Below are positions 1 to 12,109 of a DNA stretch of 12,109 nt, in pieces. The first letter of the stretch is position 1. Each line of letters opens with the position of its first letter. Both the position numbers and the translations under genes were made by a program. Source of the stretch: a virus (taxonomy: Duplodnaviria > Heunggongvirae > Uroviricota > Caudoviricetes); IMG/VR virus record IMGVR_UViG_3300019790_000026, positions 1 to 12,109 of that record; one strand, given 5' to 3'. The notes below the pieces were generated by a model that worked only from the letters and a program-made list of their open reading frames with translations, was not told where the DNA came from and ran no database searches.

Positions 1-264
1 TTCCTCGATCCGGTGTTGTCGTTGTCTCAGCAGTGCACTGGTCTGTTCTGCTTCGGCATAGAGCCGCGCCTGCTCCCGGTTATTGGTTTCAGTCAGAATG
101 GACAGGCTGATAAGCTGGCTGTTTTTCTTCGTCAGTTCCTGCGCTTTACTTTTCAGCGCCGCGCGCTGCGTTTCGATGGTGTGGCTGGCGCTGTTAAGCC
201 GCCACGACTGCCAGCCCAGCGCAACGAGTGCCAGCGCCACCACTACTGCCAGCGCACGCGTCAT
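1..264 (-). CDS. Rz/LysB-like i-spanin, partial (3-prime end lies beyond the left edge)
   Basis: Minus-strand ATG at 264..262 preceded by AAGGAG. Translation MTRALAVVVALALVALGWQSW... has an N-terminal transmembrane segment followed by a charged, coiled-coil-like region, as in Rz-family spanins. The start overlaps the upstream stop as ATGA. Confidence 0.6.
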   Translation of the reverse strand, partial: MTRALAVVVALALVALGWQSWRLNSASHTIETQRAALKSKAQELTKKNSQLISLSILTETNNREQARLYAEAEQTSALLRQRQHRIEE

Positions 265-458
265 AGTCCAGCTCCTTTAAGGCACCAGGCCATCTCCCGC
301 GCACGGCGGTTATCCAGCCCCTGATTAAACACACCTTTTACATAAACCCAGCGCGGCAACTGTCGGCACGCATCTGCCCAGCGCCGCTGATTGAGCAATT
401 TCACCAGTGTGGAACTACAGGCATTGCCCGTTGCTGCTTCTGCAGAGCAGACTCCAGT
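261..458 (-). pseudogene. C-terminal fragment of a GH24 (T4/P22-type) phage lysozyme, 5-prime truncated
   Basis: Minus-strand frame ending in TGA at 263..261 translates to ...LLNQRRWADACRQLPRWVYVKGVFNQGLDNRRAREMAWCLKGAGL, which resembles the conserved C-terminus of phage lysozymes. There is no start codon, and an in-frame stop sits at 459-461, so only about 65 codons remain. Confidence 0.45.
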
Positions 459-546
459 TCAGACAGGCGTTCTTCCTGCTCAGACAGAGATTTTTCGGTT
501 CGCGCGCTCAGGTTTTGCTGCTCAGTGGCGACCAGCTCCACGGCTC

Positions 547-2472
547 ATGACAGTGAAAGCAAAGCGTTTTCGCATCGGGGTGGAAGGTGCCACCACCGAC
601 GGACGCGAAATCCAGCGTGAATGGCTGGAACAGATGGCAGCCAGCTACAACCCGGCGGTGTATACCGCGCTGATTAACCTTGAGCACATCAAGTCTTATC
701 TGCCGGACAGCACCTTTAACCGCTACGGCAAGGTGACGGCGCTGTTTGCTGAGGAAATCACGGAAGGTCCGCTGGCAGGCAAGATGGCGCTGTATGCCGA
801 CGTTGAGCCAACGGAGTCCCTGGTGGAACTGGTGAAAAAACGCGACAAGTGGGGTGACTATGGGCCGCTGGATCAGATGCAGCTCACCACCGCCGCACGC
901 TACTGCCAGCTCATTATGAAGGAGCACAAAGAAGGGAAAGATTTCAAAGAGATTGACCTGCTGGCGCGCCAGTCGGAGCGCCATGCGCGGATCGGCAAGT
1001 TTAACAATGGCGGCAACGAAGCCGACTTAAACCCTAACGTCGCCAACCGCAACAAAGGCCCGCGTCGTCAGCCGGAAAAGAACGTTTTCACCGATGAACA
1101 GATTGAGAAGCTGGAAGAAATCTTCCATTCCTCCATGTTCAACTACCAGCGCCACTGGTGGGAAGCCGGAAAAACCAACCGCATCCGCAACCTGCTGAAG
1201 TCACGCCAGATCGGCGCGACCTTCTATTTTGCCCGTGAAGCCCTGATTGACGCCCTGCTAACCGGGCGTAACCAGATTTTCCTTTCCGCCAGCAAGGCAC
1301 AGGCCCACGTCTTTAAGCAGTACATCATCGACTTCGCCAAAGAAGTGGAGGTGGAGCTGAAAGGCGATCCGATAGTGCTTCCTAACGGGGCCACGCTGTA
1401 CTTCCTCGGCACCAATGCCCGCACGGCCCAGAGTTACCACGGCAACCTGTATCTGGATGAATATTTCTGGATACCGAAATTCCAAGAGCTGCGCAAAGTG
1501 GCTTCCGGTATGGCTATTCACAAAAAATGGCGACAAACCTATTTTTCCACGCCATCCAGCCTGACACACAGTGCTTATCCGTTCTGGTCCGGTGCGCTGT
1601 TCAACCGTGGGCGCAACAAAGCCGACAAGGTGGACATCGACCTGTCCCACAGCAATCTGGCCCCCGGCCTGCTGTGCACAGACGGGCAATACCGCCAGAT
1701 AGTCACCGTGGAAGATGCGGTGCGCGGCGGCTGTAACCTGTTCGACCTCGACCAGCTACGCATGGAGTACAGCCCGGACGAATACCAGAACCTGCTGATG
1801 TGCGAGTTCGTGGACGATCTCGCGTCCGTGTTCCCGCTCAGCGAGCTGCAAGCGTGCATGGTGGACAGTTGGGAAATCTGGACCGACTTTCATGCACTGG
1901 CCCTGCGCCCGTTTGGCTGGCGCGAAGTGTGGATCGGTTATGACCCGGCAAAAGGTACGCAGAACGGCGACAGTGCCGGATGCGTGGTGGTGGCACCGCC
2001 AGCCGTGCCGGGTGGTAAGTTCCGCATTCTTGAGCGTCACCAGTGGCGCGGGATGGACTTCCGCGCCCAGGCTGACGCCATCAAAAAACTGACCGAGCAG
2101 TACAACGTGACCTACATCGGCATCGACTCGACAGGTGTCGGCCACGGGGTTTACGAGAACGTGAAAGCGTTTTTTCCAGCCGTCCGGGAGTTTGTCTACA
2201 ACCCCAACGTTAAAAACGCCCTGGTACTCAAGGCCTACGACATTATCAGTCACCGTCGTCTGGAGTTTGACGCCGGACACACCGACATAGCGCAGTCATT
2301 TATGGCAATCCGTCGCGCCACCACCGCCAGCGGCAACCGCCCAACCTATGAAGCCAGCCGCAGCGAAGAAGCCAGCCATGCCGATCTGGCCTGGGCAACA
2401 ATGCACGCACTGTTTAACGAACCGCTGCAGGGCGAGTCCGCCAATACCAGCAATATTGTGGAGATTTTTTGA
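547..2472 (+). CDS. Terminase ATPase/large subunit (P2 gpP-like) with a foreign N-terminus resembling capsid scaffold/protease gpO (apparent fusion)
   Basis: From about codon 98 onward (KRDKWGD..., DFKEIDLL, SRQIGATFYFAREAL, NQIFLSASKAQAHVFK, LYFLGTNARTAQSYHGN) the ORF matches my recollection of the GpP terminase family. Residues 1-97 (KRFRIGVEGATTDGREI...INLEH...FNRYGKV) match the GPO scaffold N-terminal motifs. ATG at 547 is preferred over the tracked TTG at 391. The stop overlaps the portal start. Confidence 0.7.
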   Translation: MTVKAKRFRIGVEGATTDGREIQREWLEQMAASYNPAVYTALINLEHIKSYLPDSTFNRYGKVTALFAEEITEGPLAGKMALYADVEPTESLVELVKKRDKWGDYGPLDQMQLTTAARYCQLIMKEHKEGKDFKEIDLLARQSERHARIGKFNNGGNEADLNPNVANRNKGPRRQPEKNVFTDEQIEKLEEIFHSSMFNYQRHWWEAGKTNRIRNLLKSRQIGATFYFAREALIDALLTGRNQIFLSASKAQAHVFKQYIIDFAKEVEVELKGDPIVLPNGATLYFLGTNARTAQSYHGNLYLDEYFWIPKFQELRKVASGMAIHKKWRQTYFSTPSSLTHSAYPFWSGALFNRGRNKADKVDIDLSHSNLAPGLLCTDGQYRQIVTVEDAVRGGCNLFDLDQLRMEYSPDEYQNLLMCEFVDDLASVFPLSELQACMVDSWEIWTDFHALALRPFGWREVWIGYDPAKGTQNGDSAGCVVVAPPAVPGGKFRILERHQWRGMDFRAQADAIKKLTEQYNVTYIGIDSTGVGHGVYENVKAFFPAVREFVYNPNVKNALVLKAYDIISHRRLEFDAGHTDIAQSFMAIRRATTASGNRPTYEASRSEEASHADLAWATMHALFNEPLQGESANTSNIVEIF

Positions 2473-3497
2473 TGGGAAAGAGTAAGAAAAACCGCGCTGC
2501 GGCGACGAACCAGATCCAGCATAAAAACCAAACTTCAGCCGAAGCATTCAGCTTCGGTGATCCCGTTCCTGTTCTGGACCGCCGCGAATTACTGGACTAT
2601 GTGGAATGCGTAAAGATGGACCGCTGGTATGAGCCACCCGTAAGTTTTGACGGACTGGCGCGAACATTCCGCGCCGCCGTACACCACAGTTCACCGATTG
2701 CAGTAAAGTGCAACATTCTGACCAGCACCTACATCCCTCACCCGCTGCTCAGCCAGCAGGCGTTTTCACGTTTTGTGCAGGACTATCTGGTTTTTGGTAA
2801 CGCCTACCTGGAGAAACGCACGAACCGATTCGGTGAAGTTATCGCCCTTGAGCCTGCGCTGGCAAAATACACCCGACGCGGATTAGACCTAGATACCTAC
2901 TGGTTTGTGCAATACGGCATGACCACGCAGCCGTATCAGTTCACGAAAGGCAGCATTTTTCATCTGATGGAACCGGACATCAACCAGGAGATCTACGGCC
3001 TGCCCGGCTATCTTTCTGCCATCCCATCCGCCCTGCTCAACGAGTCCGCCACGCTGTTCCGCCGAAAGTATTACATTAACGGTAGTCATGCAGGCTTCAT
3101 CATGTACATGACCGATGCCGCGCAGAACCAGGAAGATGTGAACAACCTCCGCAATGCGATGAAAAGTGCCAAAGGCCCTGGCAACTTCCGCAACCTGTTT
3201 ATGTACTCGCCTAATGGTAAAAAAGACGGACTTCAGATTATCCCGTTGTCAGAAGTCACAGCGAAGGATGAGTTTCTGAATATCAAGAACGTGAGCCGTG
3301 ATGACATGATGGCGGCACACCGCGTGCCGCCGCAAATGATGGGAATTATGCCTAATAATGTCGGGGGGTTTGGGGATGTGGAGAAGGCTAGCAAGGTATT
3401 CGTAAGAAACGAATTGATGCCCCTGCAGAAACGATTGCAGGAACTAAATAACTGGTTGGACGAAGAAGTGCTCAATTTTTCAACCTATGAGCTTTAG
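2472..3497 (+). CDS. Portal protein (P2 gpQ-like)
   Basis: 341-aa ORF directly after the terminase gene with TGATG stop/start overlap. Size and position match P2 Q, and the sequence resembles the gpQ portal family. ATG at 2472 is preferred over the tracked TTG at 2469. Confidence 0.85.
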   Translation: MGKSKKNRAAATNQIQHKNQTSAEAFSFGDPVPVLDRRELLDYVECVKMDRWYEPPVSFDGLARTFRAAVHHSSPIAVKCNILTSTYIPHPLLSQQAFSRFVQDYLVFGNAYLEKRTNRFGEVIALEPALAKYTRRGLDLDTYWFVQYGMTTQPYQFTKGSIFHLMEPDINQEIYGLPGYLSAIPSALLNESATLFRRKYYINGSHAGFIMYMTDAAQNQEDVNNLRNAMKSAKGPGNFRNLFMYSPNGKKDGLQIIPLSEVTAKDEFLNIKNVSRDDMMAAHRVPPQMMGIMPNNVGGFGDVEKASKVFVRNELMPLQKRLQELNNWLDEEVLNFSTYEL

Positions 3498-3502
3498 TTT
3501 TA

Positions 3503-3533
3503 AAACGAAGACCATTAGGTCTTCGCTTTATTT
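3503..3533. terminator. Bidirectional intrinsic terminator shared by the convergent portal and retron RT genes
   Basis: Hairpin CGAAGACC (3506-3513), loop ATTA, GGTCTTCG (3518-3525), flanked by an A-run on the left and CTTTATTT on the right, so it reads as stem plus U-tract on both strands. The RT stop codon lies in the loop. Confidence 0.5.
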
Positions 3534-4477
3534 AAAGGGTTCTTTCCATATTTTTTTTCTAATTTGCTAATATAAGTTATTAATCTCCTATGGCTTTTTG
3601 AATCCACACTTAAAATAAATGACAACCATCCCCTAACGTGTTCTATCTCAGAAGACTTACCGCAAAATATATGATGTATCTTTGCTCTAATTTCTTTATA
3701 TTTTTCTCTACCTATCCCAACTTTCTCTTGTGAAATAACTAAACCTGTAACTTTCCTCTGACTACGAGGCCCACTAATACAAGTTTTTTTTGAGTTAATA
3801 ACCAATCCTTCACTTGGGATTATAGAAAATAAAAAATCACGTGCTTTAACAACCTTTTTCATAGACTGTGCAGATAAGGTGAGATCATCGGCATATCTCG
3901 TATATATCAAGCCCCGACTACCTGCATAACCCTGAATACGATAATCAAGTTTAGAACATATTAGATTAGCTAATTTAGGTGATGATGGAGCACCTTGTGG
4001 TAGCAGATTTTTATAACAACATATTTTTGTCAAAACTGAAGATATTAGTCGATTATAACCAAGAGAATGGAACACTCCAAAAACTTTGTTAGCAGTTAAA
4101 CTTGGGAAAAAATCCTCCAAATCAATATTCAGTATAAAGTTTGCCCCAATATGCGGGGTAGCATTATTCAAAATAGATTGGTGCTTTTCAAATCCAATAG
4201 AAAAAGGAGATGACGACAGTTTATCTAAAATGTTACGTAGAACCCATCCTTGTAAGGCTTTAAGTTCTCGAGAAGGTTGGTAAATGGTTCTCATTCTCTT
4301 CTCTGGGCCTTTCTTTTCTACAGTGTAGATCCTATAGCGAAAATCAGCTGTATAGATTAACAACCGAAGTGTTTCAACAGATATGCGAGTCGCCTTAGAC
4401 ATGTCATGCAAATTGTTCATGACAGGTAGGCCGAGATTTCTCAATCTAAAAGTGTTCAAATATTCAGCGGATTTCAT
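3515..4477 (-). CDS. ret: Retron reverse transcriptase, Ec86 / Retron-Eco1 type
   Basis: 320-aa ORF with reverse-transcriptase motifs (NIDLEDFFPS, LPQGAPSSPKLANL, YADDLTLS) and the retron-typical VTG motif (RKVTGLVIS). The translation matches my memory of the published Ec86 RT, and the gene sits immediately downstream of the msr-msd. Confidence 0.93.
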   Translation of the reverse strand: MKSAEYLNTFRLRNLGLPVMNNLHDMSKATRISVETLRLLIYTADFRYRIYTVEKKGPEKRMRTIYQPSRELKALQGWVLRNILDKLSSSPFSIGFEKHQSILNNATPHIGANFILNIDLEDFFPSLTANKVFGVFHSLGYNRLISSVLTKICCYKNLLPQGAPSSPKLANLICSKLDYRIQGYAGSRGLIYTRYADDLTLSAQSMKKVVKARDFLFSIIPSEGLVINSKKTCISGPRSQRKVTGLVISQEKVGIGREKYKEIRAKIHHIFCGKSSEIEHVRGWLSFILSVDSKSHRRLITYISKLEKKYGKNPLNKAKT

Positions 4478-4484
4478 GAAAGTT

Positions 4485-4496
4485 GCGCACCCTTAC
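4485..4496 (-). repeat. Retron a2 inverted repeat (pairs with a1 at 4641-4652)
   Basis: 12-nt exact reverse complement of 4641-4652. Confidence 0.85.
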
Positions 4497-4639
4497 GTCA
4501 GAAAAAACGGGTTTCCTGGTTGGCTCGGAGAGCATCAGGCGATGCTCTCCGTTCCAACAAGGAAAACAGACAGTAACTCAGATTCAATGCAGGATGCCGA
4601 AACAACATCCAGAGGTTGACCTTAATGATAAACCTCTCG

Positions 4640-5563
4640 CTAAGGGTGCGCATACGGAATCTTATCATAGTTAAATGTTGATTTTCTACGGTTTTCAAAA
4701 TTCATAATCTCAAGCCGCAATCGGTCAAGTGTCTTTCTATCAAAGACGCTCCTAACATAGCTAGCCCCCAAAGCAGTGACCTGATAACCATCAGTCATTT
4801 GAAGTATTTTTCGTTCATTTATTAGACGAGAAACAACGGATCTAACAATAATTTTAGATAAAACATCATCTTGCTTTATCGCTTTAAAAGCTAGTTCACA
4901 CAGTGTGCGGTAGTTGACACTATCCAGTAAATAGATACAAGGCAATAGAAACCGCTCTGCGTATAATATATTTCCAATATCTTTTGATACTTTATTTTCT
5001 TTCCTAACCTTCTTAATAGATGCCATTAATTTTTTATATAATCGTAATTTTCTGGCAACATCAATAGATGAATCACACATTTCTTTTAGTTCATTTGAAC
5101 TACAACGCAAAACAGATTTTGAATTAAACTTACGCAACAGGCGAACAGGACCATAGTTAATAAAGCTACGTTTTGATTTAAATTTTGCATCTTGAATGCA
5201 AATCAACTTTCTCCTTAAGTTTTCATTATTAGAGAACGCACCAAGCTCTGTGAAAGACCCCGGACTTTCAGGAAATAAAATTATTACATCGACAGCTTCA
5301 GCCAGAATATTTTCTAAACTTAAAAGGCTATGCTGCCCTTGACCAGCCAAAAGATCATCAAATAGATCTTCTGGATAAAATATATCAACATCACTGAACT
5401 TTGCTAAAAATTGTGATAATTGATGACGCCAAGATTGATGATTAGCAACGTCACCACCACATAGAAAAATGGTTATTTTAATATTAGCTCCTCGATAGAA
5501 GCCTTTCTTTGTGAGATGTCCTATAAGCTGTTGTTGCTGCTCATCGGTAAATTTTTTATTCAT
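4640..5563 (-). CDS. Retron effector: nucleoside 2-deoxyribosyltransferase-like (NDT) domain with a C-terminal putative DNA-binding region
   Basis: 307-aa ORF immediately upstream of msr-msd-ret on the same strand, with RBS GGGGAGA. The N-terminal region (IFLCGGD..., ILFPESPGSFTELGAF) fits the NDT/flavodoxin-like fold with the conserved Glu. Its TAG stop overlaps the a1 repeat. Confidence 0.85.
   Translation of the reverse strand: MNKKFTDEQQQQLIGHLTKKGFYRGANIKITIFLCGGDVANHQSWRHQLSQFLAKFSDVDIFYPEDLFDDLLAGQGQHSLLSLENILAEAVDVIILFPESPGSFTELGAFSNNENLRRKLICIQDAKFKSKRSFINYGPVRLLRKFNSKSVLRCSSNELKEMCDSSIDVARKLRLYKKLMASIKKVRKENKVSKDIGNILYAERFLLPCIYLLDSVNYRTLCELAFKAIKQDDVLSKIIVRSVVSRLINERKILQMTDGYQVTALGASYVRSVFDRKTLDRLRLEIMNFENRRKSTFNYDKIPYAHP
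4641..4652 (-). repeat. Retron a1 inverted repeat; the presumed priming G follows at 4640
   Basis: 12-nt exact reverse complement of 4485-4496, at the 5-prime end of msr. Confidence 0.85.
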
Positions 5564-5704
5564 AATCTCCCCGCTTTTTTTTCTACTTTATACATCAAGT
5601 TATGAATAGATCCAATCTCCATACCACATGGCGCGCGCTCGTATCCCCGCCACGCCTGCCCGCTTTATGCAGTGGTTTTCATGCACATGCATAACATGAG
5701 CAAA

Positions 5705-5730
5705 AGCCCGCCAGTTCTGGCGGATCTGAG
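5705..5730 (-). terminator. Putative intrinsic terminator (minus-strand sense)
   Basis: Perfect hairpin CCGCCAG-N3-CTGGCGG (5708-5726) followed on the minus strand by GCTTTTGC. Confidence 0.3.
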
Positions 5731-6035
5731 CAAAGACGATCCTCAATCGATCATGCGATTTCATGCAGCATAGTCATGCACTGTCAAGGAAGTGAAAATC
5801 CGTATCTGAATGGCCACTTGAAAAACGGATCATACGGGTTTACAAAGATGAATGTTCGCTGTGAACGGGAAGCGGAAGTTAACTTTCAGATAACATAATC
5901 CATATGCACGAGAACCTCTAAAATAGAATGGGACACCTAAGCGGGGTACTTACAACGATTCTTTCCATATTCACAGTTAACACTCTGTTTGGCGTATTTT
6001 TATTCAAATAGCAAACACCAATAAAAGGAGTTTCC

Positions 6036-6371
6036 ATGAACAATATTCCCCCTATACCACAGTTAGGAATTTATGTCTCAAAAATCGATCCCACCCTACG
6101 TATCACTGTAACCGATGTTGATATTGTTGATGGTGAGGATGATTCTCCTGATGATGAATTGTTTTATTTAGTCCACTGGATCGAGGGGGAAGATGAAAGT
6201 GATATGACAGCAATGGGATTTGAGCTAGACCCAGTAGAGTGGCAGGCTTTCGTTGAATCTGAGCAATTAGTGTTTGAGCGTGATCCGTACATGGATTCAA
6301 TCCCCGAAAATTCAAACTTGGCAAAGATTCGGGATTTTCTCATGAAGACTAAACAGAATGATCATTCGTAA
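6036..6371 (+). CDS. Hypothetical small, strongly acidic protein (111 aa)
   Basis: Strong RBS AAAAGGAG 6 nt upstream of ATG. Very Asp/Glu-rich (DVDIVDGEDDSPDDE, EGEDESD). AT-rich relative to the phage core. Divergent from the retron effector. Confidence 0.7.
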   Translation: MNNIPPIPQLGIYVSKIDPTLRITVTDVDIVDGEDDSPDDELFYLVHWIEGEDESDMTAMGFELDPVEWQAFVESEQLVFERDPYMDSIPENSNLAKIRDFLMKTKQNDHS

Positions 6372-6563
6372 GTGTAAGCATCCATCAGGAAAATGGTTTT
6401 GTAAGTGAATCATCAACTTTTAGAGAGTCTCAGACACTCCCACTTCTGCTTCTGACACAAAGCGGACGATCACTTATCAAAATAACCGCCCACCTTACGC
6501 CTTATTTCACTCATTGCCCAAACTAGCCCCCATCAGAATGAATCCTCCTGGGGGCAACATTTC

Positions 6564-6797
6564 TTAATGCAGCCAGCTGTCGTCCTCCCACACCTTCTGC
6601 ATAATTTTCATCACTTGTTTTCTTTCTTCATCCAGTTGCAGTCCGGTTAGTTCCACACCGTTAGAGCTACCTTTGCGAATGCGAATTACCGTTTTGGGAT
6701 ACAGGGGGCGCAGATTGCGGTAAAGCTCGGATTCAAGGGCGTCCAGGGTAGACTGGCTAATCTTCTGCTCTTTATCGATCATTATTTCAATGCGCAT
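6564..6797 (-). CDS. DinI-family protein (DNA-damage-inducible protein I-like)
   Basis: 77-aa product MRIEIMIDKEQKISQSTLDALESELYRNLRPLYP...VWEDDSWLH has the DinI length and pattern (MRIEV..., C-terminal acidic W motif). RBS GGTGA upstream. ATG at 6797 is preferred over the tracked 101-aa extension. Confidence 0.8.
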   Translation of the reverse strand: MRIEIMIDKEQKISQSTLDALESELYRNLRPLYPKTVIRIRKGSSNGVELTGLQLDEERKQVMKIMQKVWEDDSWLH

Positions 6798-6807
6798 AAA
6801 AGTCACC

Positions 6808-6996
6808 TCAGCTGATGACATCCATTGAGCGGTTGTATTCGTGGCTTCTGATTTTTGCCATGAGTTCATCAGTCAATTCAGAAACCCACTGCAGAGCCAG
6901 CCCCTTCTCTTCATCACTACACTCACTAGCCGCTACAAGCTTAAGAAAAAAATCAATGCGCTGGAGCTTCAAAGACTCCAAAAAATAGTCCTGCAT
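6808..6996 (-). CDS. Hypothetical 62-aa protein, first gene of the SOS-boxed operon (possibly the N-terminal part of a Tum-like antirepressor)
   Basis: ORF with strong RBS AGGAGG, directly downstream of the LexA-box promoter and 10 nt upstream of the DinI-like gene. Confidence 0.5.
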   Translation of the reverse strand: MQDYFLESLKLQRIDFFLKLVAASECSDEEKGLALQWVSELTDELMAKIRSHEYNRSMDVIS

Positions 6997-7036
6997 CTTT
7001 CCTCCTATGACACCAAAACAATACTGTATACATAAC

Positions 7037-7056
7037 CACTGTTTATATTTACAGTA
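7037..7056. promoter_or_regulatory. LexA (SOS) box overlapping a putative promoter for the orf62/DinI-like operon
   Basis: cACTGTttatatttACAGta is a perfect CTGT-N8-ACAG with AT-rich spacer. A second half-site (TACTGTATAC) lies at 7022-7031. A TTTACA / TATACT promoter-like pair is on the minus strand. Confidence 0.7.
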
Positions 7057-7148
7057 TATAATAATCTTACTGATGTAAAACGTTTTTTTACGTTCATCGG
7101 CCTGATATGCCTGGTATTATTAAGAGCACGAATTGTCAACCCGCGTAA

Positions 7149-8594
7149 TTAATACAGGTTCCGCCACTTATCATCTTCCTTCAGACGCTGGTTCCGATAG
7201 AAGATACGCAGGCCTGCTCCTGACGGAATACTGCCGCCGCGAAGGAGCAAATCGACTTCTTTCTCGCTGCCATCAAATCCCCTGGACTTCAGTTCATAGA
7301 CGAGCTGCTGTCGCTGATGGTCTGTAATTCGCTGTTTGTAGTCTTTACGCCGTTTCGGTTTCACCTGGCGTAACCTTGCAGCCAGTTCCCGGCGCTCTTT
7401 TTTGCTCATACTGTGCAGGTAATTGTGCAACTCCTTGTCATTCATACGGGTAATATCCGTTCTGGAGTCCCCATCAGCTGATTTGTCTTTCCCTTGTTGG
7501 TTCAAATTTTCAGCAAGGGGACAGTTATTGCCACGAGTCCAAGGGGCGCAAGCGCCCTGGTCGGCTGCCGCCTCCTGAACGTCAACGGCCTTACGAACCA
7601 TTTTCCACTTCACCGCATGAGTGCAGATCTTGCCCTCTGCAATGGGTGACCAGATGCCATAAATACGAATACCGTGATCGCCATATGCGGTCGGTTCTTC
7701 GTTGATTTCATAAGCAGTTCTGATGAGGTGATATTTGCGGGGAACCAGTACGCCGCCCTGCTTCATGATGTAGGTGGCAAAACAACCAGCATCAGCAGCA
7801 GCCAGGATTGCATCAAGACGCGGGTTATCCAGTACCGGCGCACCTGCTTTTTTGTCACCCTGTTGCCTTGCCGCCTGACCAGCCAGCAATCGCAGTTCAC
7901 GGTAAGCCTGACGCCCCGGAATGCCAAAGAAGCGGAATTGCTGAACACGATGCAGAGACGCCCAGGCATTAACGTATTCAGCGTTATCACGCAGGGATTT
8001 ACCCGTTTCCTTGCTGATCTCCCCAGCCAGACCACGCCCGTCAATGTTCTTACTGATGTATTTCGCGATATAGCTTGTTGGCGTACCTTTGCGCGGGTTT
8101 ATCAGCTCAGACTTAAAGCGTGGTCCCGTGTTATTGCCCAGCTCCTCGCGGTCTTCACGGATGGCAAACTTACGCAGTAATGCAGTGATGGCGCGGCGGT
8201 CTTTTTTACGCATGAAACACATGAGATGCCAGTGCACAGTACCGTCATGATGCGGCTCAGCTACCGCACCTGCAGCAACACGCCCGATCTCTGCGGTTGC
8301 ACTCATGACGTAATGTGGCAGTTTCTCTTTTGCCACCTCATTAATCGGTACGCATGGCAGGCAGTGAATCTGAGCCAGAAAACCATCTACCAGCGTTGAA
8401 TCTTCAGTCAGATCGGTAAGCAGCCAGATTTCTGGTGCGGTTAATAAATGAGGTTGCGCTGGGTTCAACTTGTTCCGCAGAATCTGCACATTCATGCCAG
8501 CACGTTCTGCCAGTTGCACCAGGTTGTGGCGCAATGCGAATGCACGACAGGCTTCATCAAAATGTGGATGTTTGGAAACTTGGTAATCAAACAT
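7149..8594 (-). CDS. In-frame fusion ORF: 186 CII-like N-terminus (~115 aa) joined to the C-terminal catalytic part of a gpA-type rolling-circle replication initiator
   Basis: N-terminus [24 protein letters not shown]...[26 protein letters not shown] matches my recollection of phage 186 CII. The downstream part carries the HUH-like HWHLM motif and the paired-tyrosine motif [12 protein letters not shown] typical of P2 gpA / phiX174 A proteins. ATG at 8594 with RBS AGAGG. Confidence 0.65.
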
Positions 8595-8626
8595 GGTCAA
8601 TGCCTCTGATGTATTTCAGAATCGAA

Positions 8627-8848
8627 CTAATTAAGGTTTAGATTGCATTCTGAAAGCGCATCAACGGTCATTGCTGCTATGTTGATCATCACTTTTTCGC
8701 GTTTTTTATCTTTGCGCAGTCGGTGACGGATAAGGCGTCCATCAGCCAACATGTCATTGATGGTATCGATGGATAGCCCTGTCAGCTCGCTATAGCGTTC
8801 AATAGTCACATGAGGGGTGGTAAGAGTGATTGAAATGTTAGGTCTCAT
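8627..8848 (-). CDS. Apl/Cox-like small HTH protein (first early-lytic gene: excisionase / transcription regulator)
   Basis: 73-aa ORF divergent from the CI gene and immediately upstream of the CII-like ORF, as apl is in phage 186. HTH-like segment [21 protein letters not shown]. Confidence 0.5.
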
Positions 8849-8967
8849 GATGCAACATTCCTCGTTTAATGATGATTAATCAGGACGAATACGGATCGTT
8901 TGTATTTTGTGAACACCATAAACATACGATCGCACAGTGAAATCGTCAAGATAAAAGTTCACTTGGA
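8849..8967. promoter_or_regulatory. Immunity switch region between apl-like and cI-like genes (lytic/lysogenic promoters and candidate operators)
   Basis: 119-bp divergent intergenic region containing related motifs ATACGGATCGTTTGTAT and ATACGATCGCAC. Its position matches the pR/pL switch of 186-type phages. Confidence 0.4.
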
Positions 8968-9543
8968 GTGACCATGAATTTGGAGAAAGGCGGACGAGGC
9001 GCTATAGAGCGCATGGTAGAAGCTTATGGATTCAAGACTCGACAGGCGTTGTGCGATCATTTAGGAATCTCTAAAAGTACACTCGCCACACGCTACATGC
9101 GTGACTCATTCCCAGCAGAATGGGTAATCCAGTGCGCCCTTGAAACAGGCACCTCGCTTAATTGGCTCACAACCGGGCATGGTTCAAAGCAAACTTCAGG
9201 TAATACAAATACTATGGAAGTTGCTAAATATGTATTATCTGATGGGGCCTTGTGTGAAGACGGTTTTTATATTTTCGATAGAGAATTTCTACCGTCGGCA
9301 TTCAAGAATCTTTTTGTAATCACAGATAATAATTCTGAATTTATTTGTGATAAGGAATTTGATGATATACGTGATGGTAAATGGGTAATAAGTATTGATG
9401 GCGAAATAACGATCCGTGACATTACTCGTTTACCCGGTGGAAGAATCTTCGTCGAGGGTGGAAATAGAGCCTTCGAGTGCAAGATAGAAGATGTTGAAAT
9501 AATTGGGAAAATTATAAGTTTAACAATTAAGTACGTTAGGTAA
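8968..9543 (+). CDS. cI: CI-type immunity repressor (phage 186 CI-like)
   Basis: 191 aa (186 CI is 192 aa). N-terminal HTH (TRQALCDHLGISKSTLATRYMRD) with a C-terminal oligomerisation-like domain. RBS GGAGTGA. Divergent from the apl-like gene and upstream of int. Confidence 0.8.
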   Translation: MTMNLEKGGRGAIERMVEAYGFKTRQALCDHLGISKSTLATRYMRDSFPAEWVIQCALETGTSLNWLTTGHGSKQTSGNTNTMEVAKYVLSDGALCEDGFYIFDREFLPSAFKNLFVITDNNSEFICDKEFDDIRDGKWVISIDGEITIRDITRLPGGRIFVEGGNRAFECKIEDVEIIGKIISLTIKYVR

Positions 9544-9558
9544 TACCGGGAGGAAACT

Positions 9559-9750
9559 ATGCTTGGTAAGGTATTTTTTGTGGTTTTATCATGCTCTTTG
9601 TTATTAAACCCACTAACTACCTATGCTAAAAATTATCCTTGTTCTGGGAAAAAGGGAGGTGTCTCTCACTGTACCTCCGATGGAAAGTTCGTTTGCAATG
9701 ATGGAACTATTAGTAAATCAAAAAAAATCTGTACTAAAAACTCGCGATAA
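9559..9750 (+). CDS. Small secreted Cys-rich protein (63 aa) inserted between cI and int
   Basis: RBS GGAGGAAACT-ATG. Predicted signal peptide [23 protein letters not shown], then a Lys-rich mature peptide of about 40 aa with 5 Cys. Confidence 0.55.
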
Positions 9751-9936
9751 ATTTTGCTTTTATATCTGCGCCTAATATAACAATGAGCCGCAGGCTAACC
9801 GCAAAAGTCACATACTCACATAGCAAAAAATAGCTAACTTCATTATGGCTTCAGTGAGATGTATGGTCGCAGGATTTCATACATTGACACTGGTTATACA
9901 TACAGTAAAAATGCTCTCTACTGGAGGGCATTTTTT

Positions 9937-10953
9937 ATGGCAGTACGAAAACTCACCACAGGAAAATGGCTTTGCGAATGTTACCCCGCCGGACGTAGTG
10001 GACGTCGTGTGCGTAAACAATTCGCCACCAAAGGCGAAGCTCTGGCTTTTGAGCGTCACACGATGGAAGAAACCGAAGCAAAGCCCTGGCTGGGCGAATC
10101 AGTGGATCGTCGGACATTGAAAGACGTGATTGAGCTATGGTTCAAACTACATGGTAAATCTCTGACAGCTGGGCAGCATGTCTATGACAAACTGCTGTTG
10201 ATGGTTGACGCTCTGGGCAATCCCCTTGCAACTGATCTAACCTCTAAAATGTTTGCCCACTATCGAGATAAACGCCTGACAGGTGAGATCTACTTCAGCG
10301 AGAAATGGAAGAAAGGAGCAAGCCCGGTCACCATTAACCTGGAGCAAAGCTATCTAAGTAGTGTTTTTAGCGAACTATCCCGCCTGGGCGAATGGTCGTA
10401 TCCGAACCCACTGGAGAACATGCGAAAATTCACCATCGCAGAAAAAGAGATGGCATGGCTTACCCATGAGCAGATTGTTGAACTGCTGGCTGATTGCAAA
10501 CGTCAGGACCCAATTCTGGCACTGGTAGTCAAGATATGCCTAAGCACAGGCGCACGCTGGCGAGAAGCAATAAATCTTACCCGCTCGCAAGTGACCAAAT
10601 ACCGAATTACCTTTGTAAGAACGAAGGGGAAGAAAAACAGAAGCATCCCTATCAGTAAAGAGCTTTACGAAGAGATCATGGCGCTTGATGGGTTCAATTT
10701 CTTTACAGACTGCTATTTTCAATTTTTATCCGTGATGGAAAAAACGTCTATCGTGCTCCCTCGCGGTCAACTGACACACGTTCTGCGCCATACGTTTGCG
10801 GCGCACTTCATGATGTCGGGTGGAAATATCCTTGCTTTGCAAAAAATCCTCGGACATCACGATATAAAAATGACTATGCGCTATGCCCATTTAGCACCCG
10901 ATCATCTTGAGACGGCTCTGAGATTCAACCCCCTCGCAACGCTAGAAGTGTGA
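9937..10953 (+). CDS. int: Tyrosine integrase (P2/186 Int family)
   Basis: 338 aa. Catalytic residues in context: ...STGARWREA..., ...HVLRHTFA..., ...MRYAHL.... RBS GGAGGG. ATG at 9937 is preferred over the tracked start at 9859. Confidence 0.9.
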   Translation: MAVRKLTTGKWLCECYPAGRSGRRVRKQFATKGEALAFERHTMEETEAKPWLGESVDRRTLKDVIELWFKLHGKSLTAGQHVYDKLLLMVDALGNPLATDLTSKMFAHYRDKRLTGEIYFSEKWKKGASPVTINLEQSYLSSVFSELSRLGEWSYPNPLENMRKFTIAEKEMAWLTHEQIVELLADCKRQDPILALVVKICLSTGARWREAINLTRSQVTKYRITFVRTKGKKNRSIPISKELYEEIMALDGFNFFTDCYFQFLSVMEKTSIVLPRGQLTHVLRHTFAAHFMMSGGNILALQKILGHHDIKMTMRYAHLAPDHLETALRFNPLATLEV

Positions 10954-11061
10954 TCTACTGGTGCAAAAATAACATCATCCCCCACTAGCTGAGTTAATTG
11001 CGTCAGAGTAAACTTTTATCAGTATATAAGTTCACTTTTATTCAATATATTAAGAGATTAC

Positions 11062-11394
11062 ATGGCTATCATTACCGTAAAAAAACATACTGTCAAAAAA
11101 GCATTATCGATGGGATTTGAAAAAGTACTTGACGATCGTGGTTATGATTCTGGGGCGTACTACGTTAAAGATGGCAAAAAGTGGATTTTTGATATTGTTG
11201 CGCTTAAGCAAAAACAAGGAGCAACCTCAGATGATGAGTTAAAAATCCTTGGGTATGATGTTGATACATATAATCTTGTAAAAAATGAATCTAATGAACT
11301 GGCTGAACTTTATCAAGATATTGCAGTTGAAGATGGTGAGCCAATGTATCTAGAGGGTGGCGTGTACTTATATCCTGATGGTTCTATCCGTTAG
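11062..11394 (+). CDS. Hypothetical protein (110 aa), AT-rich, just downstream of int
   Basis: ORF with AT-rich promoter-like upstream region. No family recognised. Composition contrasts with the GC-rich sequence that follows it. Confidence 0.5.
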   Translation: MAIITVKKHTVKKALSMGFEKVLDDRGYDSGAYYVKDGKKWIFDIVALKQKQGATSDDELKILGYDVDTYNLVKNESNELAELYQDIAVEDGEPMYLEGGVYLYPDGSIR

Positions 11395-11528
11395 CATGCA
11401 AATTGGCAGCACAACCGGGTTGTTCCAAATGGCGACAAAGTGGCGGCAGCGGTTGGCATTACCCCGTAATAACCACCACTGACCACCAACCCAACTTATT
11501 GTTTTTACTATAACTTATTGTTTTCATT

Positions 11529-11594
11529 AACCCGTTTACATAAATGGGTTTTTTGTTATCTAAAACTTATCTACTACCCTGCAACCCTCTCAAC
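11529..11594. repeat. Inverted repeat copy A (66 bp, perfect reverse complement of 12044-12109)
   Basis: Direct comparison: 11529-11594 equals the reverse complement of 12044-12109 at every position. Confidence 0.95.
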
Positions 11595-12074
11595 CATCCT
11601 CAAAATCTCCTCGCGCGATAGCGGCTTACGGTCGGTGACAAAATGCAGCGTCATCCCCTCAATAAACGCATCAAGCGCGCGGGCGGTTCCGGGTTCAAAC
11701 CATTGTTCGAGCGTTTGCTGACTGCGCTGCATCCAGTTTTGCATTACCGTTTTTAATAGCGGTTTTCGGCTAGCCAGCGCGTAGAGCTGGTACATCAGCT
11801 CCATGTTATCCGGCGTTGCAACCTGTGAGCTGTAGATCATATCGGTGATAGCCTGGCATGCGCCCGGAGCATCACTAACATCGCTAAAAAATGCCTGATA
11901 TTGCCGGGACATGATCTCAGTAAAACTGCTGAACGCCTCCAGTAACAACTCATCAATTCCTGAAAAATAGTAGGTCATCGATCCCAACGGTACCCCGGCA
12001 AGGGTAGCAATTTTGCGGTGCGTAACAGCATGTATTCCGTAAAGTTGAGAGGGTTGCAGGGTAGTAGATAAGTT
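11574..12074 (-). pseudogene. TetR-family transcriptional regulator, apparently 5-prime truncated by the inverted repeat
   Basis: The minus-strand frame is open from 12074 to the TAG at 11576..11574. It encodes a TetR-type HTH ([27 protein letters not shown]) and a ligand-binding-like C-terminal domain. There is no ATG upstream of the HTH (only a TTG at 11987, inside the HTH). The first codons and the last codons plus stop lie inside the two inverted-repeat copies. Confidence 0.65.
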
Positions 12075-12109
12075 TTAGATAACAAAAAACCCATTTATGT
12101 AAACGGGTT
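12044..12109. repeat. Inverted repeat copy B (66 bp, cut by the window edge, so it may be longer)
   Basis: Perfect reverse complement of 11529-11594. The window ends inside or at the end of the repeat. Confidence 0.95.

What the first reader, a model, noticed from the sequence alone, without database searches (positions are those of the whole stretch)
547..2472. Apparent in-frame fusion of a gpO scaffold/protease N-terminus to the terminase ATPase
In P2-family phages O and P are divergently transcribed separate genes. Here about 97 codons with gpO N-terminal motifs read straight into a gpP-like terminase that lacks its own N-terminal region. That implies an inversion with breakpoints inside O and P plus a deletion, which would disable capsid assembly and probably packaging.
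Basis: partly seen in the sequence, partly recalled or inferred. Interest (0 to 1): 0.55.

Follow-up and report, generated by a model that had tools for sequence, protein, structure and literature searches.

The report
Chimeric gpO–terminase join, probably artefact
The scaffold-protease/terminase fusion is really in this sequence, but the window is a single metagenome contig of E. coli B (BL21-type) DNA carrying three small strand-flip joins found in no other genome, so it is most likely a chimera made during DNA amplification or library preparation, not a new gene.

Summary
ORF 547-2472 (641 aa) consists of gpO residues 1-98 read straight into terminase gpP residues 44-588.

The window is the defective P2-like, retron-Ec86-bearing prophage of E. 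coli B. It is 100% identical to BL21(DE3) except for three inverted joins:
- A 302-bp piece (gpO leader plus codons 1-98) is flipped.
- 315 bp and 262 bp on either side of that piece are lost.
- A 66-nt fold-back lies at the right end, inside rcdA.

The joins sit on 6-, 7- and 3-nt microhomologies. Chance gives P = 0.0018, 0.0005 and 0.054.

The joins occur nowhere else:
- None of 5426 complete E. coli genomes has them, including 49 B-type records that carry the normal divergent O/P pair.
- No searched DNA collection holds them.
- The fusion protein exists on exactly one JGI/IMG contig of 12109 nt, which is the window itself.

This pattern matches in-vitro inverted chimeras of strand-displacement amplification. 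The fusion has no promoter, no Shine-Dalgarno sequence and no protease serine. The parent prophage already lacks N, M, L, X and Y. Even if the rearrangement is real, it is a private lesion in a dead prophage. Interest is low.

The parts
1..264 (-). 5' part of lysB (Rz-like spanin), cut by the contig end; collinear with BL21(DE3)
   Evidence: Window 1-544 = L001 3001-3544 at 100%; the BL21 annotation places lysB at L001 2836-3264.
261..431 (-). Endolysin (gpK-type) 3' remnant, a pseudogene. Its upstream end (431/432) is the old 3146-bp B-lineage deletion junction that removed K 5', Y, X, L, M, N and the O 3' end.
   Evidence: BL21 annotates a 'glycoside hydrolase family protein, incomplete' at L001 3261-3431. 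Against Cartapus, window 1-432 matches L003 3423-3854 and window 431-544 matches L003 7001-7114.
401..544 (-). Left-over 3' piece of the B-lineage gpO ORF (codons 204-250 plus stop), still in its native orientation
   Evidence: The BL21 O CDS is L001 3401-4153 on the minus strand. Window 1-544 is collinear with L001 3001-3544.
539..544 (.). Join J1: 6-nt microhomology CACGGC between the O 3' remnant and the flipped O 5' segment
   Evidence: Junction alignment. Microhomology = 6; P(>=6) = 0.0018 for random inverted joins within 1 kb.
539..840 (+). Flipped 302-bp segment: 8 nt of O leader plus O codons 1-98. It is the reverse complement of BL21 L001 3860-4161. O's GGAG Shine-Dalgarno sequence is left behind.
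   Evidence: 100% identity in inverted orientation; leader sequences compared.
834..840 (.). Join J2: 7-nt microhomology GAAAAAA between O codons 96-98 and P codons 43-45
   Evidence: Junction alignment. Microhomology = 7; P(>=7) = 0.0005.
547..2472 (+). Chimeric ORF, 641 aa: gpO 1-96, two lysines shared by both parents, then gpP 46-588
   Evidence: The exact protein is known only from one 12109-nt JGI/IMG contig.
841..2472 (+). Terminase large subunit (gpP) from codon 46 to the stop, 100% identical to BL21. The ATPase and nuclease domains are complete; the N-terminal HTH-type domain lacks its first 43 residues.
   Evidence: Window 834-12046 = BL21 at 100%. Pfam: Terminase_6N 1-214/215, Terminase_6C 1-154/155, PF06056 only 34-58/58.
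2472..3497 (+). Portal gene (gpQ), unchanged
   Evidence: BL21 annotation L001 6062-7087; Pfam Phage_portal.
12044..12109 (.). Join J3 and fold-back arm. The last 66 nt of the contig are the exact reverse complement of 11529-11594. The join sits inside rcdA on a 3-nt microhomology GTT (12044-12046). The contig ends here.
   Evidence: No complete E. coli genome that holds rcdA (0 of 5421) has this join.

Best explanation
The window is one whole JGI/IMG contig of E. coli B (BL21/REL606-type) DNA. It covers the defective P2-like prophage that carries retron Ec86, next to rcdA.

The gpO'-'gpP fusion is not a gene of that prophage. It is a by-product of polymerase strand switching. A growing 3' end left its template at CACGGC and re-annealed 617 nt ahead on the complementary strand. 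It copied 302 nt backwards (the O leader plus codons 1-98). It then left again at GAAAAAA and re-annealed 564 nt further on, on the original strand inside P. The same kind of switch, a snap-back of 452 nt primed on GTT, made the fold-back that ends the contig.

I judge that this most likely happened in vitro, through strand-displacement amplification (MDA-type) or a similar library artefact acting on contaminating or laboratory E. coli B DNA. The chimeric molecules were then assembled into the contig.

Shown:
- the three inverted joins, their microhomologies and their distances;
- their absence from every other genome searched;
- the single-contig origin of the fusion protein.

Inferred:
- that the switches happened in vitro;
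- that the E. coli B DNA was a contaminant.

Whichever way it arose, the ORF is expected to be inert:
- The divergent late-promoter region, with its TGT-N12-ACA activator site, is gone.
- O's GGAG ribosome-binding site is gone.
- The protease nucleophile (P2 Ser107; TSME motif) lies 8 codons beyond the break.
- The scaffolding C-terminal domain is absent from the fusion.
- The terminase has lost 43 residues of its N-terminal domain.
For: Structure of the joins:
- The window is 100% identical to BL21(DE3) over 544 + 302 + 11213 + 66 nt. The only differences are three joins, and each one reverses the strand.
- The microhomologies are 6, 7 and 3 nt. Simulated random inverted joins in the same locus give P(>=6) = 0.0018, P(>=7) = 0.0005 and P(>=3) = 0.054. 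The joins were therefore primed by annealing. They are not arbitrary cuts, and they are too short to be assembler overlaps.
- The joined segments lie 617, 564 and 452 nt apart.

Match to known artefacts:
- Lasken & Stockwell 2007 found that 85% of MDA chimeras are inverted joins with an intervening deletion. Most such joins link segments less than 10 kb apart, and 93.5% of those carry at least 2 nt of complementarity (range 2-21 nt).
- Up to 78% of sequenced MDA products have been reported to contain chimeras, and up to 91% of detected chimeras to be inverted.

Uniqueness:
- J1/J2 are contiguous in 0 of 5426 complete E. coli genomes.
- The normal divergent O/P arrangement is present in 1045 genomes and is 100% identical in B strains.
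- J3 is present in 0 of 5421 genomes.
- The junction strings are absent from genome contigs, metagenome contigs and viral contigs, and no plasmid or phage record spans the junctions.
- No protein among 5.8 billion clusters spans the junction with both domains.
- The exact fusion protein occurs once, from JGI/IMG, on a contig of 12109 nt, which is the window length. The fold-back therefore sits 66 nt from a true contig end.

Plausible source of the DNA:
- Host E. coli DNA in recombinant phi29 polymerase, and E. coli sequence in MDA products, are documented.

Expected inertness:
- No sigma-70-like promoter in window 1-1000.
- The intergenic region with TGT-N12-ACA at L001 4233-4250 is deleted, and the GGAG is lost.
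- O(S107A) is protease-deficient; the protease domain is residues 1-141 and the scaffold domain 195-284 in P2.
Against: I could not recover the sample record. The positional look-up of the fusion protein returns nothing. I therefore do not know whether the library was amplified, what read type was used, or what the coverage was.

The same microhomology-primed inverted joins can arise in living cells by replication template switching.

Two consecutive switches that leave a tidy in-line inverted segment, read through in frame, are less typical of single-join MDA chimeras.

An assembler normally prefers the true path if un-chimeric reads are present, so the chimeric molecules must have dominated locally.
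Confidence: 0.65

Rival explanations
1. The rearrangement is a real but private mutation in a living E. coli B-derived population. A deletion-inversion-deletion arose from two replication template switches (FoSTeS/MMBIR-like, or microhomology-mediated repair) inside an already dead prophage, leaving an unexpressed chimeric pseudogene.
For: Microhomologies of 6 and 7 nt at the joins are also the signature of in-vivo template switching. The locus is a decaying prophage that already carries two older deletions fixed in the lineage: K'..O' and cII::A. Further lesions there would be neutral.
Against: It is absent from all 49 B-type complete records and from 5426 genomes overall. A third inverted join with a fold-back inside the chromosomal gene rcdA lies only 11.2 kb away, with no point differences anywhere else. 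Three strand-switch events and no base substitutions in 12 kb is not what lineage divergence looks like. The protein has been seen on one metagenome contig only.
Confidence: 0.3
2. Programmed, site-specific DNA inversion, that is, an invertase switch of the Gin/Cin/Hin type that P2-like phages use at tail-fibre genes, flips the O 5' segment.
For: BL21's prophage has a recombinase-family pseudogene about 8 kb from the window's left end (L002 22654-22893).
Against: No inverted-repeat crossover sites flank the segment. The only inverted repeats of 20 nt or more in the window are the terminal fold-back and a 76% 25-mer inside the retron genes. 577 bp are lost, which conservative site-specific inversion does not cause. 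The recombinase is truncated. No other genome shows either orientation of such a switch.
Confidence: 0.01
3. The fusion is a functional new protein, for example a scaffold-tagged terminase, or a decoy that interferes with packaging by incoming P2-like phages or P4-like satellites.
For: The join is in frame, and the ATPase and nuclease domains are complete.
Against: An in-frame join is a 1-in-3 chance. There is no promoter-like site or Shine-Dalgarno sequence upstream. There is no conservation: the protein is a single occurrence among 15 billion proteins, and no protein anywhere spans the junction with both domains. The gpO part lacks its catalytic serine and its scaffolding domain.
Confidence: 0.01
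4. The assembler mis-joined correct reads purely in silico.
For: The sequence is a metagenome contig, and the last join lies at the contig end.
Against: The overlaps at the joins are 3-7 nt, far below any assembler k-mer or overlap length. Read-internal chimeras are needed to bridge them. No repeats of k-mer length exist at J1/J2 that could mislead a graph.
Confidence: 0.03

Closest known systems
Defective P2-like prophage of E. coli B carrying retron Ec86 ('Rybb*B'; BL21(DE3) NC_012971.2, about 872.0-892.6 kb)
   Same: 100% nucleotide identity over all 12 kb outside the three joins. The older lesions are the same (K'..O' deletion, cII::A fusion), the retron RT and effector are the same, and the chromosomal neighbour rcdA is the same.
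   Different: In B genomes O (250 aa, minus strand) and P (588 aa, plus strand) are separate, divergent and complete at their 5' ends, with the late-promoter region between them. The window has the 302-bp flip, the 315-bp and 262-bp losses, and the rcdA fold-back.
Inverted chimeras of multiple displacement amplification (Lasken & Stockwell 2007, PMC1855051)
   Same: The join reverses the strand, the segments are less than 1 kb apart, there is an intervening 'deletion' or snap-back, and 3-7 nt of complementarity sit at the priming site.
   Different: Amplification of the source library is not documented here. J1 and J2 are two successive switches in one molecule rather than a single join.
Replication template switching in vivo (FoSTeS/MMBIR-type complex rearrangements; template-switch mutagenesis in E. 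coli). Named from my own knowledge.
   Same: Microhomology-primed strand switches that give deletion-inversion-deletion structures.
   Different: No evidence that this happened in a cell: there is no second occurrence in any genome.
P2 gpO (scaffold/protease) and gpP (large terminase), and their homologues in phage Cartapus
   Same: Residues 1-98 are homologous to the gpO N-terminus. Residues 97-641 are homologous to gpP 44-588.
   Different: Neither parent is complete. gpO lacks the catalytic serine and everything downstream of it. gpP lacks 43 N-terminal residues. In all intact relatives the two genes are divergent.

Membership tests
P2 gpO scaffold/protease (Pfam PF05929 Phage_GPO) | Sequence homology of the N-terminal region | tested here: met
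   PF05929 E = 1.8e-44, profile positions 2-97; 96% identity to Cartapus O 1-98; 47% identity to P2 gpO 6-103.
P2 gpO scaffold/protease (Pfam PF05929 Phage_GPO) | Complete protease domain (P2 residues 1-141) including the Ser107 nucleophile | tested here: not met
   Only 98 residues are kept, covering profile positions 2-97 of 268. The TSME serine motif lies 8 codons past the break in BL21. O(S107A) is protease-deficient.
P2 gpO scaffold/protease (Pfam PF05929 Phage_GPO) | C-terminal scaffolding domain (P2 residues 195-284) in the same polypeptide | tested here: not met
   Codons 99-203 are deleted. Codons 204-250 remain only as a detached remnant on the opposite strand at 401-544.
P2 gpP-type large terminase | Complete ATPase (Terminase_6N) and nuclease (Terminase_6C) domains | tested here: met
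   Profile positions 1-214/215 and 1-154/155; 100% identical to BL21 P from codon 44.
P2 gpP-type large terminase | gpP N-terminal HTH-type domain (PF06056) | tested here: not met
   Only profile positions 34-58 of 58 remain, E = 3.2e-4. P codons 1-43 are deleted.
P2 gpP-type large terminase | Working partners in the same element (small terminase gpM, capsid gpN) | tested here: not met
   The 3146-bp deletion relative to Cartapus removes N, M, L, X, Y and part of K in the window and in all B genomes.
In-vitro inverted chimera (MDA type) | Joined segments in opposite orientation, less than 10 kb apart on the true genome | tested here: met
   Three joins, 617, 564 and 452 nt apart; criteria.
In-vitro inverted chimera (MDA type) | Short complementarity (2-21 nt) at the priming site | tested here: met
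   6, 7 and 3 nt; chance P = 0.0018, 0.0005 and 0.054.
In-vitro inverted chimera (MDA type) | Join absent from independent sequences of the same organism | tested here: met
   0 of 5426 complete genomes for J1/J2; 0 of 5421 for J3; 49 B-type records carry the normal arrangement; the fusion protein is a single-contig occurrence.
In-vitro inverted chimera (MDA type) | Source library made by strand-displacement amplification, with the joins carried by individual reads | not testable with these tools
   The sample record could not be retrieved.
Site-specific invertase switch (Gin/Cin/Hin type) | Inverted-repeat crossover sites flanking the segment, and no loss of DNA | tested here: not met
   No flanking inverted repeats; 577 bp lost.

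The most novel reading that the evidence does not exclude
The joins are real. A living E. coli B-derived population underwent a double template-switch event (deletion-inversion-deletion) in its retron-Ec86 prophage, together with a nearby inverted duplication in rcdA, and this created an in-frame scaffold-protease/terminase chimera. It would be a natural example, resolved to the base, of FoSTeS/MMBIR-like complex rearrangement in a bacterial chromosome.
Probability: 0.28. Interest if true: 0.2.

Novelty: not a real feature. Interest (0 to 1): 0.07.

Why it matters
The main value is as a caution. A convincing-looking domain fusion in a phage module turns out to be laboratory-strain E. coli B DNA in a metagenome contig, rearranged by strand-switch chimerism. 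Taken at face value it would add a false protein architecture (Phage_GPO + terminase) and a false 'viral' contig to databases.

If the joins were real they would still be a neutral lesion in a prophage that lost its capsid, small-terminase and lysis genes long ago. Nothing about phage biology, or about the neighbouring retron Ec86, changes.

Tried and rejected
Searches for a second occurrence, all empty:
- Exact-string scans for J1 and J2 in genome contigs, metagenome contigs and viral contigs.
- Megablast of the junction region against complete E. coli genomes, plasmids and phages. No record spans the junctions.
- A junction-centred 100-aa protein search of 5.8 billion clusters. No hit carries both domains, and the maximum query coverage is 72%.

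Attempts to recover the source sample:
- Positional look-ups of the fusion protein failed.
- Exact look-ups with alternative start codons failed. The first batch was flawed for GTG/TTG starts, because the first residue was not M; the starts most likely to be called (391, 409, 424, 553, 580) were repeated with M.
- Only the ATG-547 product is on record, from JGI/IMG, on one contig of 12109 nt.

Other checks:
- Rfam on the whole window gave no hit, so Rfam gave no match for the retron ncRNA.
- A paper on the gpO catalytic residues (PMC2655311) is not held. I therefore cite only S107 and the domain limits from PMC7552001. The Asp19/His48/Ser107 triad is from my own recollection.

Explanations considered and rejected:
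- Invertase-mediated switching: no repeats, and DNA is lost.
- A pure assembler mis-join: the overlaps are far too short.
- A selected functional fusion: no expression signals and no second occurrence.
- Arbitrary cut-and-paste: excluded by the microhomology statistics.
Full report
**What is in the sequence.**
From ATG 547 to the stop at 2470-2472 it encodes 641 aa, and the frame stays open upstream to a TTG at 391. Pfam finds four pieces on the 693-aa frame:
- Phage_GPO (PF05929), profile positions 2-97 of 268, E = 1.8e-44.
- The last 25 positions of the gpP N-terminal domain PF06056.
- A complete Terminase_6N.
- A complete Terminase_6C.

Residues 1-98 are 96% identical to residues 1-98 of the scaffold/protease of phage Cartapus and 47% identical to P2 gpO 6-103. 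Residues 97-641 are 99% identical to Cartapus terminase 44-588 and align with P2 gpP from residue 41. In P2, Cartapus and E. coli BL21 the two genes are separate and divergent.

**Where the window comes from.**
The window is the defective P2-like prophage of E. coli B that carries retron Ec86, together with the chromosomal gene rcdA. This prophage is called Rybb*B in PMC3032704. Against BL21(DE3) NC_012971.2 the window splits into four blocks, each 100% identical:

| Window | BL21 locus | Orientation |
|---|---|---|
| 1-544 | L001 3001-3544 | collinear |
| 539-840 | L001 4161-3860 | inverted |
| 834-12046 | L001 4424 onward | collinear |
| 12044-12109 | reverse complement of window 11529-11594 | inverted copy of earlier window sequence |

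There is not a single base substitution anywhere. The differences are therefore:
- a flipped 302-bp piece (8 nt of O leader plus O codons 1-98);
- loss of 315 bp (O codons 99-203);
- loss of 262 bp (134 of the 142 nt of the O/P intergenic region plus P codons 1-43);
- a terminal fold-back that interrupts rcdA.

**The joins.**
All three joins reverse the strand, and all sit on short microhomologies:
- J1: CACGGC, 539-544.
- J3: GTT, 12044-12046.

In 400,000 simulated random inverted joins within 1 kb in the same locus, microhomology of at least 6, 7 and 3 nt occurs with P = 0.0018, 0.0005 and 0.054. The joins were therefore primed by annealing. They are not arbitrary cut-and-paste, and the overlaps are far too short to be assembler overlaps. 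The joined segments lie 617, 564 and 452 nt apart on the reference.

**Is it found anywhere else?**
No.
- None of 5426 complete E. coli genomes holds J1/J2 contiguously.
- The normal divergent arrangement is present in 1045 genomes and is 100% identical in the B lineage. 49 records match the window's first 3.6 kb in two collinear pieces plus a separate inverted place.
- None of 5421 genomes that hold rcdA has J3.
- The junction strings are absent from the species-representative genomes, the JGI metagenome contigs and IMG/VR as searchable here. No plasmid or phage record spans the junctions.
- A junction-centred protein search of 5.8 billion clusters found no protein with both domains.
- The exact 641-aa protein is on record exactly once, from JGI/IMG, on one contig whose length is 12109 nt.

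The window is therefore a whole metagenome-type contig, and the fold-back lies 66 nt from a true contig end.

**Most likely explanation.**
The known product with exactly this pattern is the inverted chimera of strand-displacement amplification. The pattern is three strand-reversing joins, each less than 1 kb across, each on a few nucleotides of complementarity, in DNA otherwise identical to a laboratory strain and seen in one contig only.

Lasken & Stockwell (PMC1855051) found that 85% of MDA chimeras are inverted joins with an intervening deletion. Most link segments less than 10 kb apart, and 93.5% of those carry at least 2 nt (range 2-21) of complementarity where the displaced 3' end re-primed. 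Later work cites up to 78% of sequenced MDA products as containing chimeras, and up to 91% of detected chimeras as inverted. Host E. coli DNA carried in recombinant phi29 polymerase, and E. coli sequence in MDA products, are documented.

I therefore read the fusion as two successive template switches in one amplified molecule (J1, then J2), and the contig end as a third snap-back (J3). The E. coli B DNA would be a reagent or laboratory contaminant. The last two points are inference. I could not retrieve the sample record, so amplification is not shown. Confidence is 0.65.

**Main rival.**
The same signature can arise in living cells by replication template switching, and a dead prophage would tolerate it.

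Against this:
- absence from every sequenced B-lineage genome;
- three strand switches and zero substitutions in 12 kb;
- a fold-back inside a chromosomal gene at the contig end.

Confidence is 0.3.

Minor rivals are rejected as follows:
- Site-specific inversion is excluded. There are no flanking inverted repeats and 577 bp are lost.
- A selected functional fusion is excluded by the single occurrence and the lack of expression signals.
- A purely in-silico mis-join is unlikely with 3-7-nt overlaps.

**Consequences if the DNA were real.**
The fusion would very probably not be made:
- The whole late-promoter region between O and P, including a TGT-N12-ACA dyad at BL21 L001 4233-4250, is deleted. 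That this dyad is the Ogr-type activator site is my own knowledge; the activator site for pO/pP is annotated in P2.
- O's GGAG ribosome-binding site was left behind at J1.
- There is no sigma-70-like promoter in window 1-1000.

If made, it would be crippled:
- The gpO part stops 8 codons before the TSME serine. O(S107A) is protease-deficient, the protease domain is residues 1-141 and the scaffolding domain is residues 195-284 in P2.
- The terminase part lacks the first 43 residues of its N-terminal domain.

Relative to Cartapus, every B genome and the window share a 3146-bp deletion (junction at window 431/432). It removes the last 37 codons of O, all of N, M, L, X and Y, and two thirds of K. 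They also share a cII::A deletion.

**Verdict.**
- Novelty: not a real feature. If real, it is an ordinary private lesion in a known defective prophage.
- Interest is low.

Noticed in passing
window 11529-11594 and 12044-12109: The last 66 nt of the contig are an exact inverted copy of sequence 450 nt upstream. The join sits on GTT inside rcdA. The arm runs from the rcdA 3' end to its terminator-like hairpin (AACCC...GGGTT), where the contig stops. No other E. coli genome has this join.
   Followed up: yes
window 431/432 (K' remnant 261-431, O 3' remnant 401-544): An older 3146-bp deletion, shared by all B-lineage genomes, joins the endolysin 3' end to gpO codon ~240. It removes N, M, L, X, Y and most of K. 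BL21's annotated 250-aa 'GPO family' protein is therefore itself C-terminally truncated and reads into endolysin-derived sequence.
   Followed up: partly
window 7149-8600 (- strand): A second in-frame fusion ORF (483 aa): the CII regulator (Phage_CP76, positions 1-112 of 146) runs into the C-terminal part of replication protein A (Phage_GPA, positions 243-321 of 321). This one is also in BL21(DE3), which is 100% identical to the window here, and is annotated there as two pseudogenes. It is an inherited deletion, not a chimera.
   Followed up: partly
window 3515-5684: Retron Ec86 lies between the portal gene and a 58-nt match to the Cartapus/P2-type cos site at 5627-5684. It consists of the RT (3515-4477, minus strand), a 162-nt gap at 4478-4639, and the 307-aa effector (4640-5563, minus strand). 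Cartapus has a DUF4145 gene at the same position. The effector has no Pfam hit and the window has no Rfam hit.
   Followed up: partly
window 4512-4565: An imperfect palindrome (84% self-complementary over 55 nt) sits in the gap between the retron effector and the RT. This is where the msd stem-loop of the retron ncRNA would be expected.
   Followed up: no
protein P0040, Klebsiella aerogenes, 164 aa: A database protein carries both the Ogr_Delta zinc-finger domain (PF04606) and the Phage_GPO domain (PF05929). It is another odd P2-module fusion, seen on 3 contigs.
   Followed up: no
cluster 1: The 90%-identity cluster that holds the fusion protein mixes 588-aa terminases with 341/342-aa portal proteins (17027 members). 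This suggests that chimeric or read-through sequences have bridged two unrelated families in that clustering.
   Followed up: no
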